A DNA stretch of 64,000 nt, taken from positions 11,730-75,729 of IMG/VR virus record IMGVR_UViG_3300032236_001081. One strand, 5' to 3'. Position 1 is the first letter of the stretch, and every line of letters starts with the position of its first letter. Origin of the DNA: a virus. Shown piece after piece: positions 26,169-57,710 of this stretch. The notes under the pieces are model-generated. The model was not told the origin of the DNA, ran no database searches, and worked only from the letters and a program-made list of their open reading frames with translations. Both the position numbers and the translations under genes were made by a program.

Positions 26169-26587
26169 ATAATAATTTTGATAAAATAGACGAAGTTTTA
26201 GATATCAATGCGAAAGAATTATCTAAAGAGATAATTAAAAAGGAAAAAGTAGAATTAACAAAACCAATAGAAGGAACTATTGATAATGATGAAAAGTATA
26301 CTCGTGATAATTTATATGAGTTAATGGAAATGGGGCAACACGCTGCATATGAAATGTTTGAGATAGCAAAGGAAACTCAAAAAGCAAGAGATTTTGAAGT
26401 TGTCGGTCAACTATTAAAAACAGTTGGAGATATTTCTGATAAATTACTAGATAATCAACAAAAAATGAAGAAGTTGAAGGAAGATGAGAGTAAAACAAAT
26501 ATTACTAACAATACTACAAATGCACTATTTGTCGGTTCTACTGCAGACCTTCAAAAATTCTTAAAAAATAGTATGAAAGATAAATAG
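26165..26587 (+). CDS. gp16: Terminase small subunit gp16
   Basis: YTRDNLYELME...FEVVGQLLK; NALFVGSTADLQKFLK. Confidence 0.9.
   Translation: MNNNFDKIDEVLDINAKELSKEIIKKEKVELTKPIEGTIDNDEKYTRDNLYELMEMGQHAAYEMFEIAKETQKARDFEVVGQLLKTVGDISDKLLDNQQKMKKLKEDESKTNITNNTTNALFVGSTADLQKFLKNSMKDK
26580..26586 (+). promoter_or_regulatory. Late promoter ATAAATA
   Basis: Overlaps the gp16 stop, 12 nt upstream of the 26599 ATG. Confidence 0.6.
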
Positions 26588-26598
26588 TCAAAAATGCA

Positions 26599-27156
26599 AT
26601 GAAAAGTTTTACTGAATTTATTTTAGAAGCTACTTCAATATGCAACCAATCCGGTGAGGGAAAATATTGTCCCTCTCACGGAAAGGAGAATTGCTCCAAA
26701 TTAAAATCATATAAAACAGTTGAACAGATTGCTAAAAAGCATCGTCTTGATATTTCTTTTGTAAAAAATCAACTTGAGATGGGAATTCCAATTGAGCACG
26801 AACATACTAAAGATAAAATGTTAGCAACGGAGATTGCACTTCAACATCTTGGTGAAATCCCAGATTACTATACCCGTTTGAAAAAAATGGAAGCATCAGC
26901 TAAAAAAGAACACAAAAAATTTAAAGATGTAAAAGAAGATTATACTGTAATACAATCTCGTGGTTCAACTTATACGGTTTTATTAAATTGGAGAGGTCAA
27001 CATCTTTCAGTTCAGATATTTTTCCCTAAATCATCAAGACCCACTAAAGATGAAGTCGTATTTGAGATAAGAAAAATATATCCAAATGCAATGGTCTTTT
27101 CATATGCACCATCAATTAAAGACCCAACTAAACCATTATTATTTACAGGTATATGA
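26599..27156 (+). CDS. Hypothetical protein with DUF5661-like module; candidate capsid-internal protein
   Basis: QLEMGIPIEHEHT...EIALQHLGEIPDYYTRLKKME; N-terminus MKSFTEFILEA resembles the T4 internal-protein capsid targeting sequence. Confidence 0.65.
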   Translation: MKSFTEFILEATSICNQSGEGKYCPSHGKENCSKLKSYKTVEQIAKKHRLDISFVKNQLEMGIPIEHEHTKDKMLATEIALQHLGEIPDYYTRLKKMEASAKKEHKKFKDVKEDYTVIQSRGSTYTVLLNWRGQHLSVQIFFPKSSRPTKDEVVFEIRKIYPNAMVFSYAPSIKDPTKPLLFTGI

Positions 27157-33662: not shown

Positions 33663-34220
33663 ATGTCTTTTAAAATTGTTCAAAAAATACCCACTATTTC
33701 TATTGCATCTTCTGGTGGGATTTCAACTTCCGTTCCAATTGCAATGAAAACTGGATACCTTCTGATTACCCCAGAAGATAATGCTTATGTTGAAATCAGT
33801 CCAAATCCACAAGTAGATAATGTATCAAGTCTTTGGGTTCCTGGTGGAAACTCTGTAGTTATCAAACAGGAATGGGGGTCTAGGTCTTTTATTGGAATCC
33901 AAACAGGTTCATCTACAACAATTATCTTTGAGTCTGGAACTGCTGCAGGATTTGAAGTTGGGGATGTAGTTTCAATTAGTGGAGTATCTCCAGTTGGAGT
34001 AAATACTAGTTTCACTACAGTAAATAGTATTGAAACTAGCACATCTTATGATAGTTATTATAATACAAGAATGACTGTGAATTGGAATACTTCTGGAATT
34101 GCCACAGTTACTAGCCCAGTCGGTGAAGTTCGTAAAGTTACAAAAGTTTCTGCATATAATGCAGGAAGTGGTGCGAATAAAATTCACATTACAGAAATCC
34201 AAGCAAACGCATACGCATAA
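33663..34220 (+). CDS. Hypothetical late (probable virion) protein
   Basis: Ser/Thr/Gly-rich beta-type sequence; late promoter; lies in the head gene cluster. Confidence 0.65.
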   Translation: MSFKIVQKIPTISIASSGGISTSVPIAMKTGYLLITPEDNAYVEISPNPQVDNVSSLWVPGGNSVVIKQEWGSRSFIGIQTGSSTTIIFESGTAAGFEVGDVVSISGVSPVGVNTSFTTVNSIETSTSYDSYYNTRMTVNWNTSGIATVTSPVGEVRKVTKVSAYNAGSGANKIHITEIQANAYA

Positions 34221-34224
34221 ACTA

Positions 34225-34878
34225 ATGAAACTAATCACCGAAGAAATAGACCAGGTAGAAGTTATCGTTGAAGAAATCAACGGTAAAAAATCTCTTTATA
34301 TTGAAGGAATTTTCCTTCAAGGTGATATGTGTAATCGCAACAAACGATTATACGAAATGGATACTTTAAGAGAAGGAGTAAAAACCTATACTGAAAGATA
34401 TCTCAGTAAAGGTAGGGCAGTTGGTGAATTGGGACACCCTCAAGGACCTGCTATCAATTTAGATAGAGTTTCTCATAATATTATATCACTAAAAGAATCT
34501 GGAAAAAACTTTATAGGTAAGGCTAAGATTTTAACATCTTTACCTATGGGTAAAATTGCTGCCGGTCTTTATGGAGAAGGAGTAAAGCTTGGGGTATCTT
34601 CTCGTGGTGTTGGTTCATTAGTTCCAACATCAAAGGGATATAGCGTAGTTGGAAGAGATTTTATGCTTTCAACTGCTGCAGATATCGTTCACGACCCATC
34701 TGCACCTGATGCATTTGTAAATGGCATTATGGAAGGTGTTAGTTGGTTGTATGATAGCAAGCAACAGATTTGGATTTCTGAAAATATTAAAAAGAGAATT
34801 GAAAGTGATTCATTCACTAAACAATTAACTGAAGAAAGAAAACTTCAGCATTTTGAAAATTATTTAAAATTACTTTGA
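34225..34878 (+). CDS. gp21: Prohead protease gp21
   Basis: Start reassigned to MKLITEE (ATG 34225); GELGHP; VSSRGVGSL; DIVHDPSAPDAFVNGIME. Confidence 0.95.
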   Translation: MKLITEEIDQVEVIVEEINGKKSLYIEGIFLQGDMCNRNKRLYEMDTLREGVKTYTERYLSKGRAVGELGHPQGPAINLDRVSHNIISLKESGKNFIGKAKILTSLPMGKIAAGLYGEGVKLGVSSRGVGSLVPTSKGYSVVGRDFMLSTAADIVHDPSAPDAFVNGIMEGVSWLYDSKQQIWISENIKKRIESDSFTKQLTEERKLQHFENYLKLL

Positions 34879-54073: not shown

Positions 54074-55096
54074 ATGCCTGTGGATTCTAAAATAGATATT
54101 ACAAAAATCCAATATGTAGTAAATTCTATTGCATCCAGTAATAGTATTGTAGTTAGAAAAAATTATACAGTACAAGTTATCCCTAAAAATTTAGCAGAGG
54201 GGAGGCCGTTATATGAAAAGATATATTCAGAGCTTCTTAGATTATATCCTAATATAAAATTAAAAAAAGAAATTGATGGAGACATAGGTAAAATTAGAGT
54301 AACTGAGAATGGATATGGGTATGTAAAAATACAATTAGAAAAGTCAACCAATAAGATTAGCAGTGTATTAAAACCAGGTGAGGCATATGAATTATATTTC
54401 CATTCTGTGATATTAGATCAACTTAGTAGAATCAAGGAGATAAAAAAAGAATTGGATGGAGTCCCTCCTAACATATTTGATATGTATAATAATGTAACCT
54501 TAAATCTATACGGAGGTGGTAAACAAATATCTATAGGACCTATATTATCTGCAGATAAAGTGGGACAAACTGGTAAAAAACCTGATATCGCAATAAAAAC
54601 TAAACCTGGTAAAACTATAACGATATCGTTAAAACAAGGAAATTTTTCATTTTGGAGTAGTGCAGATACATATGAAAATATTCCTATCCAAATTTTGAAT
54701 AAGACTTTAAAAGCAGGGAAAGTTGCATTAAAAACGCCTCCTGGACAACCTTCCACTTTTGTTGGAAATGTTGGAGGAATAAGAGTTCCCGCCAACATAT
54801 CTGAAGTTAAAAAATACTGCTTTGGCGGGTCTACTGGGGTTGATTATATCATAATCAATGCTAAATTAACTGGAGTAAGTAAAAATAATATTATTAGTAT
54901 GAATGGAATTAATATATTTAAAAATAATAACACTAAAGATATATTGAGAATGCTTCCCGATGTTTACTTAGTAATAAAGTCAGACCCAAGAAGAAATGCG
55001 AAGTCTATGCTACCATATAAAGGATTTACTGTTAATTTTGTGAATAAAGCTCACGCATTTGACCCTAGAAATAAATATGTAGATGGTGTTAGATAA
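54074..55096 (+). CDS. Putative PD-(D/E)xK-superfamily endonuclease
   Basis: Lys-rich protein; GEAYE helix, then KPDIAI...ISLKQ (PD...SxK variant). Confidence 0.5.
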   Translation: MPVDSKIDITKIQYVVNSIASSNSIVVRKNYTVQVIPKNLAEGRPLYEKIYSELLRLYPNIKLKKEIDGDIGKIRVTENGYGYVKIQLEKSTNKISSVLKPGEAYELYFHSVILDQLSRIKEIKKELDGVPPNIFDMYNNVTLNLYGGGKQISIGPILSADKVGQTGKKPDIAIKTKPGKTITISLKQGNFSFWSSADTYENIPIQILNKTLKAGKVALKTPPGQPSTFVGNVGGIRVPANISEVKKYCFGGSTGVDYIIINAKLTGVSKNNIISMNGINIFKNNNTKDILRMLPDVYLVIKSDPRRNAKSMLPYKGFTVNFVNKAHAFDPRNKYVDGVR

Positions 55097-55101
55097 AATT
55101 C

Positions 55102-55108
55102 ATAAATA
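55102..55108 (+). promoter_or_regulatory. Late promoter ATAAATA
   Basis: Upstream of the cytidyltransferase-like gene. Confidence 0.7.
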
Positions 55109-55125
55109 CTTAAAAACTCAATAAT

Positions 55126-56325
55126 ATGAAGTCGTTTCGCCAATTTATATCCGAAGCATTAGAAACAATTGCATCATCCCAAGCAAAACAAATGGGACTG
55201 CGAGGAGATGGGCACGGAGATTGGTATGATAATCAAGGGAAATTAGTAGCAAAAACTGTAGGGGGTAAACTTCAGGTATTTAAAGGAAGAGATAGTAAAG
55301 GTGCTGAAGATACAGCTACTAAAAAAGATACTGAAGCTCAACCCCAAGCAGCACCTGCAACTCAACAACCTCCGGACCAACAGCAACCACAGACACAAGA
55401 GCAAGGTAAAGGTATAGTAGTAGTTCTTGGTAAATTCAACCCTCCAGGAAAGGCACACGAACAACTTTTAAAGTTTGGATTCAATCAAGGAAAAACTAGT
55501 GGGGCAGAATATCGTATTTACCCAAGTCGTATTGAAGATAAAGAAACTAATCCTCTCAATCCGACACTCAAGATAAAGTATATGAAGGCAATGTACCCCG
55601 AGTATGCAGATTATATTATAGACAATAGTGACATATCCACTTTATTTGATGTTCTTACAAGTTTATCAAATGATGGATTTACTGATGTAAAAATAATTGT
55701 AGGCTCAGATAGAGTTGGGGAGTTTCAAAGTTTAGCTCATAGAGGAGAAGGAGAAACCTATCAATTTAATACAATTGAAGTTATTCCTGCGGGAGTGAAG
55801 GACCCAGATAGTGATGTTGGAGGTGCTGGGTCTTCCGCACAATTAAGAGCAGCAGTAGCAGAAGGGAACTTTGAATCATTCTCTGCAAATCTTCCTACCC
55901 GTATGAAGAGAGCGGATAAGGAACAACTTTTTAATTCAGTTGCAGATGCTATGCAACTTGGAGAGAGATATGAATTATGGAGAATTGCCCCTGAACTTGA
56001 TATGGAAGGGTTGAGGATGAACTATAAAATAAATAACTTATATCCTATTGGTAGTATTATAGAAAATTTAAACACAGGACTTCAGGGAAGAGTTCTTCGT
56101 CGTGGGACCAACTATCTTATTTGTGTAACAAATGAAGGAGTGATGTTTAAATCTTGGTTGCAAAATATAAAAGAAGCGGTTTATGAAGTCGGAACCTCTA
56201 AATACCTTAAAAAATTACAAAGTATAACTCCAGGTCAACCTGTAGTTTCTTATACTGGAATTGAAATTAAAGAAACTATGCCTAAGAAAAAACTAAATAT
56301 GAATAGTAAAGGTTCTACAAAATAA
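55126..56325 (+). CDS. Cytidyltransferase-like (HxGH nucleotidyltransferase family) protein
   Basis: VVVLGKFNPPGKAH (family pattern FGRFNPP..GH); NPL...KIKYM; IIVGSDRV; SSAQLRAA; C-terminal RRGTNYLICV domain. Confidence 0.8.
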   Translation: MKSFRQFISEALETIASSQAKQMGLRGDGHGDWYDNQGKLVAKTVGGKLQVFKGRDSKGAEDTATKKDTEAQPQAAPATQQPPDQQQPQTQEQGKGIVVVLGKFNPPGKAHEQLLKFGFNQGKTSGAEYRIYPSRIEDKETNPLNPTLKIKYMKAMYPEYADYIIDNSDISTLFDVLTSLSNDGFTDVKIIVGSDRVGEFQSLAHRGEGETYQFNTIEVIPAGVKDPDSDVGGAGSSAQLRAAVAEGNFESFSANLPTRMKRADKEQLFNSVADAMQLGERYELWRIAPELDMEGLRMNYKINNLYPIGSIIENLNTGLQGRVLRRGTNYLICVTNEGVMFKSWLQNIKEAVYEVGTSKYLKKLQSITPGQPVVSYTGIEIKETMPKKKLNMNSKGSTK

Positions 56326-56327
56326 AG

Positions 56328-57710
56328 ATGGCAAACTGGAGAGAAGAATTACTTTTTGAAAAAGGTCCTTTTGATAAGCCACCTTCAGTGTTAAAAAGAG
56401 AGCGAGATGCTTCTGCAAAAAAAGATGCAAGAGAAGCAAAAGCAGAAGAAGCTGCTGAAAGGTCTGCAGATTATCGTAAATATCAAAAAGATACATTAGA
56501 ATATAAAAAAGGAAGATTGAAATGGCAACAGGAAAGGTCTCTCAAAAAAGATAAAGAAAGAAGAGAAAACGAACAGAAGGCTAGAATAACTGGCCCGCTT
56601 AAAGATATCAAAACTCAAACAATATCGGGCAAGGACCCCGACTCTACTGCTGGCGCAAAGCTAGTAGGAAACGCTGCGTCTCTTGTAGGTGGAGTTGCTA
56701 AAGCTGGTGCTGCTGCAATTGTACACAATATAAAAAAAAGAAAAGAAGCAAAAAGAAACGCTCAAATTGAAGCAGGAACTAAAAAAGCACAAGAAAAAGC
56801 TGCAGAAATGGAGACTTCTCGGAAACAGCCAAGATTACCACCAGCGGGTAGAACTTTGGGCCAAAGAGCACGAGCAAATAAAAGCATTAGACAAACAGAA
56901 ATAGCAAATAGAATGCCAAAGAAACAATATGATTTTAAGCAATCTGAATACGATAAGTCTACTAATGAAGAATACTCTTGTTGGAGAGAGGAGTTTCTTT
57001 GCGAATTAGGAGATATAAGAAGAAAGATGAAAAAAGATAAAGATGATAAAATTGTAAATGTAATGACAGGAACAAATAAGATTACATTATTCCCAACTAT
57101 CATTGAAGAAGTTGATAATGAAGGCGGAATGGCTCGTAATGAGCTTTCTACGATGGAAAGAGCAGTCAAATCACTTCGCAAAAAAATAAAATCAAATAAT
57201 CAACAACTGCCTGCGTGGGTTCAATCTAAAATCACAAAAGCAGCAGACCATATTGATACTGTTGCGGATTATATGATGGGTGAAACTGAAACAGTTAAAG
57301 AAGCATATGATGATGAGAATGAAACTTTCCGTCAGCATTCTCGTGAGAGATTTACTGCTGGTGCTGCTGATGATGATAGAGCACAAAGAACTTCTAGAAT
57401 TCTTCAAAGAATGAAAGAAATGAATAAAGATGCTAAACCAAAGAAGAAAAAAAAAATTAAAATAGCAGAAGAAGGACCTGTTCTATCTGTAGGTAGAGGT
57501 GAAAAACTTTCAGTTGAAAGGGGTGGTGGATTGACTGCAAAAGGAAGAGCAAAATACAATCGTGCCACTGGCTCACACCTTCAAGCACCTGTAACTGGTA
57601 AAGTAAAACCAGGAAGTAAAGCAGCACAACGCCGTAAGAATTTTTGCTCTCGTAGTAGAAGTTGGCACGGAGAAAGAGGATTAGCTGCAAGACGAAGATG
57701 GAAGTGCTAA
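56328..57710 (+). CDS. Modular, highly charged late protein (candidate capsid-internal polyprotein)
   Basis: CTAAATA at 56293; repeated WREE(L/F)L.E; module EGGMARNEL...LPAWVQSKITKA; module GGLTAKGRAKYNRATGSHLQAPVTG...RRKNFCSRS...RRRWKC. Confidence 0.65.
   Translation: MANWREELLFEKGPFDKPPSVLKRERDASAKKDAREAKAEEAAERSADYRKYQKDTLEYKKGRLKWQQERSLKKDKERRENEQKARITGPLKDIKTQTISGKDPDSTAGAKLVGNAASLVGGVAKAGAAAIVHNIKKRKEAKRNAQIEAGTKKAQEKAAEMETSRKQPRLPPAGRTLGQRARANKSIRQTEIANRMPKKQYDFKQSEYDKSTNEEYSCWREEFLCELGDIRRKMKKDKDDKIVNVMTGTNKITLFPTIIEEVDNEGGMARNELSTMERAVKSLRKKIKSNNQQLPAWVQSKITKAADHIDTVADYMMGETETVKEAYDDENETFRQHSRERFTAGAADDDRAQRTSRILQRMKEMNKDAKPKKKKKIKIAEEGPVLSVGRGEKLSVERGGGLTAKGRAKYNRATGSHLQAPVTGKVKPGSKAAQRRKNFCSRSRSWHGERGLAARRRWKC

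What the first reader, a model, noticed from the sequence alone, without database searches (positions are those of the whole stretch)
55102..56325. Nucleotidyltransferase-like enzyme with a T4 internal-protein capsid-targeting N-terminus: possibly packaged and injected
Seen: late promoter, N-terminus MKSFRQFISE|A, a Gln/Pro linker, then an HxGH-family domain whose signature is degenerate (PPGKAH). Knowledge: T4 IPII/IPIII start MKTYQEFIAE, a capsid targeting sequence removed by gp21 after (I/L)-x-E, and these proteins are ejected with the DNA. Inference: this 'cytidyltransferase' may not be an ordinary metabolic gene. It could be a head-packaged effector acting at the start of infection, for example in NAD/nucleotide-signal metabolism, anti-defence or protein nucleotidylation. 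The altered motif suggests changed specificity or a binding-only role.
Basis: partly seen in the sequence, partly recalled or inferred. Interest (0 to 1): 0.72.

Follow-up and report, generated by a model that had tools for sequence, protein, structure and literature searches.

The report
Capsid-tagged nucleotidyltransferase of a cyanophage
A core enzyme-like gene of an uncultured T4-like ocean cyanophage starts with the same ten-residue tag that phage T4 uses to load proteins into its head, which explains why relatives turn up in purified virus particles; in this lineage the enzyme's active-site signature has decayed, and its substrate is unknown.

Summary
Window 55126-56325 (+) encodes a 399-aa protein that starts MKSFRQFISE|A. 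A Gln/Pro-rich disordered linker follows, then an HxGH-type nucleotidyltransferase fold whose signature reads GKAH, then a small C-terminal domain.

It belongs to a known family: T4-GC190 / PHROG 395 "cytidyltransferase", a cyanomyovirus core gene. Relatives were already detected by mass spectrometry in S-SM1, S-SCSM1 and S-CREM2 virions, so "packaged" is not new for the family.

My added evidence concerns the tag:
- All 120 closest homologues keep M1, K2, F4, F7 and E10; position 8 is I, rarely L or V. Positions 5, 6 and 9 vary. The fixed positions are those T4 needs for targeting and gp21 cleavage.
- The same decapeptide heads unrelated cyanophage proteins: a SAM lyase, a kinase, a GNAT and small basic proteins.
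- An unbiased scan of S-CREM2 found four such ORFs, and all four are in its published virion proteome.
- The window encodes a gp21-type protease and a second tagged ORF (26599).

The window's lineage has lost many family-conserved active-site residues, and it is the only copy in a complete relative. PPAT and NMNAT folds tie, so the substrate is open.

This scan reached the same reading on four other genomes. Processing, ejection and activity are untested.

The parts
55102..55109 (+). Late-promoter-like box CATAAATA, 24 nt upstream of the ATG
   Evidence: It fits the NATAAATA consensus cited in PMC2984593. ATAAATA shows a 30:4 strand bias in the window.
55126..56325 (+). 399-aa ORF, member of T4-GC190 / PHROG 395 'cytidyltransferase'
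   Evidence: phrog_395 scores 4e-70 over aa 90-374. 557 phage records hold a homologue.
55126..55155 (+). aa 1-10, MKSFRQFISE: CTS-like decapeptide, with a predicted gp21 cut after E10 (I-S-E|A)
   Evidence: M1, K2, F4, F7, E10 invariant and position 8 I (3 L, 1 V) in 120 homologues. Same pattern as T4 ipII and ipIII. Shared with unrelated virion proteins.
55156..55290 (+). aa 11-55: small N-domain (a helix plus three short strands; GL..DGHG.WYD motif), basic (pI 9.7)
   Evidence: Model pLDDT 70-81. The same domain follows the tag on the S-CREM2 gp14 kinase, on gp12 (869 aa) and on the stand-alone S-CRM01 g128 (alignment A2). phrog_3561 matches aa 2-92.
55291..55410 (+). aa 56-95: Gln/Pro/Thr/Glu-rich disordered linker
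   Evidence: pLDDT below 50 for 54-92. Length and sequence vary among homologues.
55411..55965 (+). aa 96-280: HxGH-superfamily nucleotidyltransferase fold. Motif 1 is GKFNPPGKAH (55429-55458). Motif 2 is GSSAQLR (55828-55848).
55966..56325 (+). aa 281-399: linker, a small beta-rich C-terminal domain (strands 311-343; RRGTNYLICVT..MFKSW) and a basic tail
   Evidence: Low confidence, pLDDT 50-65. The domain is conserved across the whole family. It sits on a separate ORF in P-HM2.
34099..34878 (+). gp21-type prohead core protease, the enzyme expected to remove the tag
   Evidence: Pfam Peptidase_S77, 8e-30. It lies between the portal gene (gp20) and the scaffold gene (gp22).
26580..27156 (+). 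Second tagged gene: GATAAATA box at 26580, then a 185-aa ORF (26599-27156) starting MKSFTEFILE|A, between the terminase subunits. It carries a DUF5661 domain.
   Evidence: Its C-terminal part resembles the tagged S-SCSM1 ORF30, which sits at the same genome position.

Best explanation
The gene encodes a head-packaged protein. It is made late. Its first ten residues act as a T4-type capsid targeting sequence that docks it on the scaffolding core of the prohead. The phage's gp21-type protease then cuts after Glu10 (I-S-E|A). The roughly 43-kDa mature protein stays in the DNA-filled head and most likely leaves with the DNA at the next infection.

The cargo is a nucleotidyltransferase-fold domain of the cyanophage core family T4-GC190, with a small N-domain and a small C-terminal domain. 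In the canonical family (TxGH or HxGH) it is probably an adenylyl- or cytidylyl-transferase acting at the very start of infection.

In the window's lineage the active-site signature and several conserved basic residues are replaced. Here the protein either uses a different substrate or chemistry, or only binds a nucleotide.

Shown: the motif, its conservation, its sharing among unrelated proteins, its enrichment in a virion proteome, the protease gene, the fold and the residue losses.

Inferred: targeting, cleavage, ejection and any activity.
For: 1. Conservation. All 120 closest metagenomic homologues (56-95% identity) start MK[ST]FxxFIxEA (one has F at position 3, two have V at 11). M1, K2, F4, F7 and E10 are fixed; position 8 is I in 116, L or V in 4; positions 5, 6 and 9 vary (A1). 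A review of the T4 work states that residues 4 and 7 carry targeting and residues 8 and 10 carry processing (PMC9026906).

2. T4 control. The same DNA pattern hits only ipII, ipIII and gp61.1 in T4. ipII and ipIII read MKTYQEFIAE|A.

3. Modularity.
- The pattern gives 14 hits in seven cyanophage genomes and 0 for the reversed control. 13 of the 14 sit on annotated CDS starts.
- The carriers are unrelated: S-CREM2 SAM lyase (PF23780), kinase-like gp14 and gp13; S-CRM01 GNAT-like g185 and g129; P-SSM2 basic gp115 and gp211; S-SCSM1 ORF30.
- In S-CRM01 the gene is split, and both halves carry a tag: g128 holds the N-domain, g127 the catalytic and C-terminal domains.

4. Proteomics.
- An unbiased six-frame scan of S-CREM2 gives four tagged ORFs (6, 13, 14, 154). 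All four are in the published virion proteome of 52 out of 221 annotated features. The hypergeometric P is about 0.003, by my arithmetic.
- Tagged homologues were detected in S-SM1 virions (PMC3037559; N-terminus MKKFSAFLNE).
- S-SCSM1 ORF91 was detected as well (PMC9602691).

5. A Peptidase_S77 protease is encoded in the window.

6. Late-promoter-like boxes precede both tagged ORFs in the window.

Against: - No data exist for this protein itself. There is no virion mass spectrometry, no mapped N-terminus and no assay.
- The authors of the virion proteomes themselves could not exclude carry-over of abundant late proteins.
- S-CREM2 ORF154 had only 3 peptides.
- S-SCSM1 ORF30 carries the tag but is not annotated as a virion protein.
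- P-HM2 has a 183-aa catalytic-only form with no tag. Two other genomes in the Sullivan table have equally short genes. Packaging is therefore not universal in the family.
- Residues 11-55 are also conserved, so conservation of the N-terminus alone does not isolate the decapeptide.
- Many distant family members carry a similar short N-terminal peptide directly before strand 1. That peptide could in principle belong to the enzyme.
- Ejection is known for T4 internal proteins, not for cyanophages.
Confidence: 0.7

Rival explanations
1. Ordinary cytoplasmic auxiliary metabolic enzyme (NMNAT-like, NAD salvage) that works during infection. On this view the N-terminal peptide is simply part of an N-terminal helix, and virion detections are carry-over of an abundant late protein.
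For: - Cultured homologues are annotated NMNAT.
- NadD and NMNAT lead the Foldseek list.
- The authors of the proteomes raise the contamination caveat.
- P-HM2 has an untagged 183-aa form.
Against: - The same decapeptide heads unrelated proteins.
- All four unbiased hits in S-CREM2 are in the virion proteome.
- The split S-CRM01 genes each carry their own tag.
- The variable and fixed positions match T4 CTS genetics.
- The fold does not favour NMNAT over PPAT.
- This lineage has lost family-conserved residues.
Confidence: 0.12
2. Packaged, but catalytically dead in this lineage. On this view it is a pseudoenzyme kept for nucleotide binding (for example sequestering a signalling nucleotide) or for a structural role inside the head.
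For: Compared with 126 family representatives, the window lineage replaces these conserved residues:
- T108 (95% T) by G/S/A;
- G110 (96%) by A/N;
- K140-K141;
- Y207-N208 (97-99%);
- S221;
- R225 by K;
- K239 (94%);
- R273 (94%).

Some members have D instead of the otherwise invariant His111: 5 of the 120 closest homologues and 3 of the 24 in alignment A1. It is the only family copy in a 100%-complete 284-kb relative.
Against: - The rest of the domain stays under strong constraint in the lineage: G102, F104, N105, P106-P107, Y132-P-S-R135, G193, R196, D226-P-D228, S236-S237 and R241 are invariant.
- The window protein itself keeps His111.
- Coordinated replacement of several residues fits a change of substrate as well as a loss of function.
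Confidence: 0.25
3. A prohead core or assembly factor that is degraded by gp21 during maturation, like T4 gp22 or gp68. It would not be delivered to the host.
For: - The tag and protease logic is the same as for T4 core proteins.
- A conserved (L/I/V)-x-E lies in the disordered linker at 278-280, and further IxE sites lie at 311, 348 and 381.
Against: - Homologues are found in mature virions with peptides from the body of the protein.
- An enzyme fold under purifying selection is not expected of a sacrificial scaffold.
Confidence: 0.08

Closest known systems
Phage T4 internal proteins IPII and IPIII (and IPI), with the capsid targeting sequence
   Same: - A ten-residue N-terminal tag with an aromatic residue at positions 4 and 7, I at 8, E at 10 and A at 11. 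T4 reads MKTYQEFIAE|A and the window reads MKSFRQFISE|A.
- The phage encodes a gp21-family (S77) protease.
- A late-promoter-type box lies upstream.
- Several unrelated proteins of one phage share the tag.
   Different: - The cargo is a 389-aa multidomain enzyme-fold protein, not a small basic protein.
- The tag is followed by a conserved 45-aa N-domain that also travels with other cargos.
- Targeting, cleavage and ejection are not demonstrated for any cyanophage protein.
T4-GC190 / PHROG 395 'cytidyltransferase' (NMNAT-annotated) of T4-like cyanophages: S-SM1, S-SCSM1 ORF91, S-CREM2 ORF154, P-SSM2 gp194
   Same: - Homologous over the full length, 35-50% identity.
- Same tag, N-domain, linker, catalytic domain and C-terminal domain.
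- Cyanophage core gene, detected in virions.
   Different: - Cultured members have the canonical TxGH or HxGH signature: PPTVGH, PPTIGH, PPHAGH, PPHKGH.
- They also keep the KK, YN, R and K residues that the window lineage has replaced.
- No cultured phage is more than 50% identical.
NadD / NMNAT / NadM and PPAT (CoaD), the HxGH nucleotidyltransferase superfamily
   Different: - Sequence identity is 8-18%.
- No hit to any PDB chain by sequence or by profile.
- Pfam PF01467 is below its cut-off.
- The first H/T and the Gly of the signature are missing.
- PPAT and NMNAT tie, so the acceptor substrate cannot be read from the fold.
T4 Alt, a head-packaged, gp21-processed ADP-ribosyltransferase injected with the DNA (own knowledge; its processing is mentioned in PMC9026906)
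   Same: An enzyme carried in the head of a T4-type phage and trimmed by the prohead protease. It is the precedent for delivering catalytic activity with the genome.
   Different: The fold and chemistry are unrelated. I did not compare Alt's leader with this tag here.

Membership tests
T4-type CTS-bearing head (internal) proteins | N-terminal decapeptide with targeting residues at positions 4 and 7 (aromatic) | tested here: met
   F4 and F7 are invariant in 120 homologues. T4 has Y4 and F7. The roles of these positions are given in PMC9026906.
T4-type CTS-bearing head (internal) proteins | gp21 processing site (I/L)-x-E at positions 8-10 | tested here: met
   I8-S9-E10|A11. E10 is invariant and A11 nearly so (two of 120 have V); position 8 is I, rarely L or V. 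This is a sequence feature only.
T4-type CTS-bearing head (internal) proteins | The same phage encodes a gp21-family prohead protease | tested here: met
   Peptidase_S77, 8e-30, at 34099-34878.
T4-type CTS-bearing head (internal) proteins | Protein present in purified virions | not testable with these tools
   Published only for homologues: S-SM1, S-SCSM1 and S-CREM2. There are no data for this uncultured phage.
T4-type CTS-bearing head (internal) proteins | Tag removed in the mature virion, and protein ejected into the host | not testable with these tools
   I found no peptide-level data. This needs N-terminal mapping and infection assays.
T4-GC190 / PHROG 395 cyanophage 'cytidyltransferase' | Significant profile match over the catalytic and C-terminal domains | tested here: met
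   phrog_395 scores 4e-70 over aa 90-374. tblastn gives 1e-85 to 7e-97 to cultured members.
T4-GC190 / PHROG 395 cyanophage 'cytidyltransferase' | Family-conserved residues (GRFNPPTxGH, KKNPL, YNG, SAGxRDPD, GMSASKMR) | tested here: not met
   The window has GKFNPPGKAH, ETNPL, GEG, PAGVKDPD and AGSSAQLR. The whole lineage deviates. It is homologous, but a divergent subgroup.
HxGH nucleotidyltransferase superfamily (Pfam CTP_transf_like, PF01467) | Rossmann-like nucleotidyltransferase fold | tested here: met
HxGH nucleotidyltransferase superfamily (Pfam CTP_transf_like, PF01467) | (H/T)xGH signature after strand 1 | tested here: not met
   The window reads G-K-A-H. Only the last His is kept, and some lineage members have D there.
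HxGH nucleotidyltransferase superfamily (Pfam CTP_transf_like, PF01467) | Pfam gathering score | tested here: not met
   13.7 bits against a cut-off of 21 for the isolated domain. There is no hit for the whole protein.
NMNAT / NadD (NAD biosynthesis adenylyltransferases) | Structural match that stands above other superfamily branches | tested here: inconclusive
NMNAT / NadD (NAD biosynthesis adenylyltransferases) | ATP + NMN/NaMN adenylyltransferase activity | not testable with these tools
   I found no assay for any T4-GC190 member. The annotations are by similarity.

The most novel reading that the evidence does not exclude
T4-like cyanophages use a portable leader, made of the T4-type decapeptide and often a 45-aa N-domain, to load a changing set of enzymes into the head and inject them with the DNA. 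The set includes a SAM lyase, a kinase, a GNAT and this nucleotidyltransferase. In the window's uncultured lineage the nucleotidyltransferase has been retooled: its active-site signature and five basic residues are replaced. It would then act as a new activity or as a nucleotide-binding decoy at the first moments of infection, for example against nucleotide-signalling or NAD-depleting defences.
Probability: 0.2. Interest if true: 0.8.

Novelty: new member of a known kind. Interest (0 to 1): 0.55.

Why it matters
Three published cyanophage virion proteomes reported "non-structural" enzymes in particles, and the authors could not say whether these were cargo or contamination. A T4-type targeting tag on exactly those proteins gives a mechanism and a sequence rule for predicting virion-delivered proteins in uncultured marine myoviruses.

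That makes an old question testable: what do abundant ocean phages inject besides DNA?

The decayed active site in this lineage, in a single-copy core gene, marks a natural experiment on what the packaged enzyme is for.

Tried and rejected
- Pfam on the whole protein gave no hit. The isolated domain is below the cut-off.
- Sequence and profile searches of the PDB found nothing related.
- I tested whether the flanking ORFs (54074-55096 and 56328-57710) are homologues of the S-SCSM1 'virion protein' neighbours ORF90 and ORF92. BLASTP found no significant similarity, so I make no synteny claim.
- I looked for a second, canonical copy that would excuse the degenerate one. There is one copy only in the window contig and in four related contigs, one of them 100% complete.
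- Literature searches linking cyanophages with a capsid targeting sequence or with T4 internal proteins found nothing relevant. Only open-access papers and preprints were searchable, so an earlier report cannot be excluded.
- The S-PM2 genome paper was not held.
- No peptide-level mass spectrometry tables were examined.

Full report
**What is there**

Window 55126-56325 (+) is a 399-aa ORF starting MKSFRQFISEALETIASS. The window is the structural and replication region of an uncultured T4-like cyanomyovirus.
- Genes gp15, gp16, gp17, gp18, gp19, gp20, gp22 and gp23 lie at 25-37.6 kb.
- A DnaB-type helicase and MazG lie just upstream of the ORF.
- The contig is 75.7 kb with 33% G+C.
- CATAAATA at 55102-55109 lies 24 nt before the ATG.
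- The review PMC2984593 gives NATAAATA as the cyanomyovirus late-promoter motif.
- In the window, ATAAATA is strongly strand-biased (30 on +, 4 on -) and sits 19-56 nt upstream of many structural genes.

**Family**

The protein has no Pfam hit as a whole. It matches PHROG 395 "cytidyltransferase" at 4e-70 over residues 90-374.

tblastn finds homologues in 557 phage records. They are mostly Synechococcus and Prochlorococcus myoviruses, with a best identity of 50%, and are annotated cytidyltransferase or NMNAT. In jumbo coliphages and in Klebsiella and Pseudomonas phages only the catalytic domain (about residues 97-277) is matched.

This is T4-GC190 of Sullivan et al. 2010, a core gene of 16 cyanomyoviruses (PMC3037559).

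**Already published**

Virion association of this family is in the literature.
- A "putative citidylyltransferase (T4-GC190)" was detected in S-SM1 particles.
- The S-SCSM1 NMNAT, ORF91, was detected in virions (PMC9602691).
- S-CREM2 ORF154 was detected too (PMC10665884).

The last two papers state that such proteins are frequently detected. They also state that carry-over of abundant proteins could not be excluded. I found no paper that connects this with a T4-type capsid targeting sequence, within the limits of the searchable library.

**The N-terminal tag**

Conservation:
- All 120 closest metagenomic homologues (56-95% identity) begin MK[ST]FxxFIxEA, apart from one with F at position 3 and two with V at 11.
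- M1, K2, F4, F7 and E10 are fixed; position 8 is I in 116 and L or V in 4. Positions 5, 6 and 9 vary.
- A review of L. W. Black's work reports that in the T4 IPIII tag, residues 4 and 7 carry targeting and residues 8 and 10 carry processing.

Positive control in T4:
- I ran the degenerate DNA pattern for M-K-x-(F/Y)-x-x-F-(I/L/V/M/F)-x-E on the T4 genome.
- It hits only ipII, ipIII and the small ORF 61.1.
- ipII and ipIII both read MKTYQEFIAE followed by Ala.
- The window protein has the same Ala at position 11.

**The tag is a module**

- The equivalent pattern gives 14 hits in seven cyanophage genomes and none for the reversed control. 13 of the 14 lie on annotated CDS starts.
- Besides the nucleotidyltransferases, the carriers are:
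  - S-CREM2 gp6, a SAM lyase (PF23780, 2e-19);
  - S-CREM2 gp14, kinase-like, with a GTG start;
  - S-CREM2 gp13;
  - S-CRM01 g129 and the GNAT-like g185;
  - P-SSM2 gp115 (86 aa, basic) and gp211 (573 aa, very basic);
  - S-SCSM1 ORF30.
- In S-CRM01 the gene is split. g128 carries the N-domain behind ..SFIKEAA. g127 carries the catalytic and C-terminal domains behind MKLFNQFFKEA.
- S-CREM2 ORF154 likewise has the tag directly in front of the catalytic domain.
- The window itself has a second tagged ORF, 26599-27156, starting MKSFTEFILE|A. It lies between the terminase subunits and has its own GATAAATA box.

**Enrichment in a virion proteome**

A six-frame scan of the whole S-CREM2 genome used the regex ^M[KR]x[FLYWIM]xx[FYWLM][ILVMF]xE. 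It covered any start codon with at least 40 aa remaining in the ORF.
- It returns exactly four ORFs: 6, 13, 14 and 154.
- All four are among the 52 proteins of the published virion proteome, out of 221 annotated features.
- By my arithmetic the hypergeometric probability is about 0.003.
- gp12 (869 aa), also in that proteome, has the motif a few residues in from its annotated start.
- The S-SM1 homologue detected in 2010 starts MKKFSAFLNE.
- The S-SCSM1 homologue starts MKSFLQFLKE.

**The protease**

ORF 34099-34878 is a Peptidase_S77 (T4 gp21 family) protein, 8e-30. It lies between the portal and scaffold genes.

**An extended leader**

Residues 11-55 form a helix plus three short strands (pLDDT 70-81). 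The same domain follows the tag on:
- the nucleotidyltransferases of P-SSM2 and S-SCSM1;
- the S-CREM2 gp14 kinase;
- S-CREM2 gp12;
- the stand-alone S-CRM01 g128 (alignment A2).

PHROG 3561, a family of proteins of about 934 aa, also matches residues 2-92. The portable unit may therefore be longer than ten residues.

**The cargo**

The AlphaFold2 model has mean pLDDT 67, with 80-94 in residues 96-280.
- Foldseek's best matches are NadD, NMNAT and NadM, at E 3e-6 to 3e-4, followed by PPAT.
- The fold is therefore that of the HxGH nucleotidyltransferase superfamily.
- The acceptor substrate cannot be inferred, and the NMNAT annotation of relatives is not established.
- The C-terminal region contains a small beta-rich domain at low confidence. 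It is conserved throughout the family and sits on a separate ORF in P-HM2.

**A decayed signature in this lineage**

Cultured relatives carry the canonical motif: PPTVGH, PPTIGH, PPHAGH or PPHKGH. Among the 120 close homologues the motif reads PP[SAG][KRN][NSGAT][HD].

Against 126 family representatives, the lineage has replaced these conserved residues:
- T108 (95% T);
- G110 (96%);
- K140-K141 (83-86%);
- Y207-N208 (97-99%);
- S221 (96%);
- R225 (98%, now K);
- G-M-S-A-S-K-M-R, now x-G-S-S-A-x-L-R, with K239 lost;
- G255;
- R273.

Many other positions remain invariant within the lineage. Only one family copy exists in the window contig and in four related contigs, one of them a 100%-complete 284-kb genome. 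This fits either a change of substrate or chemistry, or a binding-only protein. I cannot decide between them.

**Caveats**

- Nothing here shows cleavage, ejection or activity.
- P-HM2 has an untagged 183-aa catalytic-only form. Two other genomes in the Sullivan table have genes of the same short length.
- S-SCSM1 ORF30 is tagged but is not annotated as a virion protein.
- S-CREM2 ORF154 was seen with only three peptides.
- Many distant family members have a similar short peptide directly before strand 1. I read this as the same tag, but it could be argued to belong to the enzyme.

**Earlier notes of this scan**

The same reading, a capsid-tagged nucleotidyltransferase of a T4-like cyanophage, was reached before on four other genomes. 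I treated these as leads and re-derived the evidence above independently.

**Verdict**

The packaging interpretation is well supported indirectly. The functional speculation remains open.

The gene family and its presence in virions are known. What is added is the targeting mechanism, the portable leader, the enrichment test and the lineage-specific decay of the active site.

Noticed in passing
window 26599-27156 (+): A second ORF with the same tag (MKSFTEFILE|A), between the small and large terminase genes. It has a DUF5661 domain (7e-17), and its mature part is basic (pI 9.4). Its C-terminal part resembles the tagged S-SCSM1 ORF30, which sits at the same genome position.
   Followed up: partly
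T4 NC_000866 18966-19130 (-), locus L037: The T4 hypothetical ORF 61.1 (54 aa) starts MKTFKEFIKE, a near-perfect CTS. It is the only hit of the pattern in T4 besides ipII and ipIII.
   Followed up: no
S-CREM2 OR473000 3837-13331, locus L020: A cluster of tagged, virion-detected proteins: gp6 SAM lyase, gp12 (869 aa, annotated Cas9-like but with no Pfam hit), gp13 and the gp14 kinase-like protein. gp12 and gp14 also carry the 45-aa N-domain of the window protein.
   Followed up: partly
P-SSM2 NC_006883 169737-171458 (L019) and 100269-100529 (L018): gp211 (573 aa, extremely basic, low complexity) and gp115 (86 aa, basic) start with the tag. They look like analogues of the T4 internal proteins.
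   Followed up: no
S-CRM01 NC_015569 139045-139440, locus L017: The GNAT-like 'acetyltransferase' g185 (131 aa) starts MKTFDEFLTE. It is a candidate packaged acetyltransferase. All its Pfam GNAT matches are below the gathering cut-offs.
   Followed up: partly
window 56328-57710 (+): The downstream 460-aa, highly charged protein has a C-terminal DUF6321 domain (2e-14). A similar C-terminal module ends S-SCSM1 ORF29 (annotated virion protein) and S-SCSM2R ORF176, so it may be a head protein too. BLASTP to S-SCSM1 ORF92 was not significant.
   Followed up: partly
window 55957-55965 (aa 278-280): A conserved (L/I/V)-x-E lies in the disordered linker between the catalytic and C-terminal domains, and E280 is invariant in the lineage. 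It could be a second gp21 site that frees the C-terminal domain.
   Followed up: no
window, whole: ATAAATA occurs 30 times on the + strand and 4 times on the - strand, mostly 19-56 nt upstream of ORF starts. This fits NATAAATA late promoters throughout the structural module.
   Followed up: partly
IMG/VR contig of L048 (G002:C1:78504-79349, -): The family match in this 171-kb relative contains two in-frame TAA stops and the open frame is 352 aa. It may be a broken or split copy.
   Followed up: no
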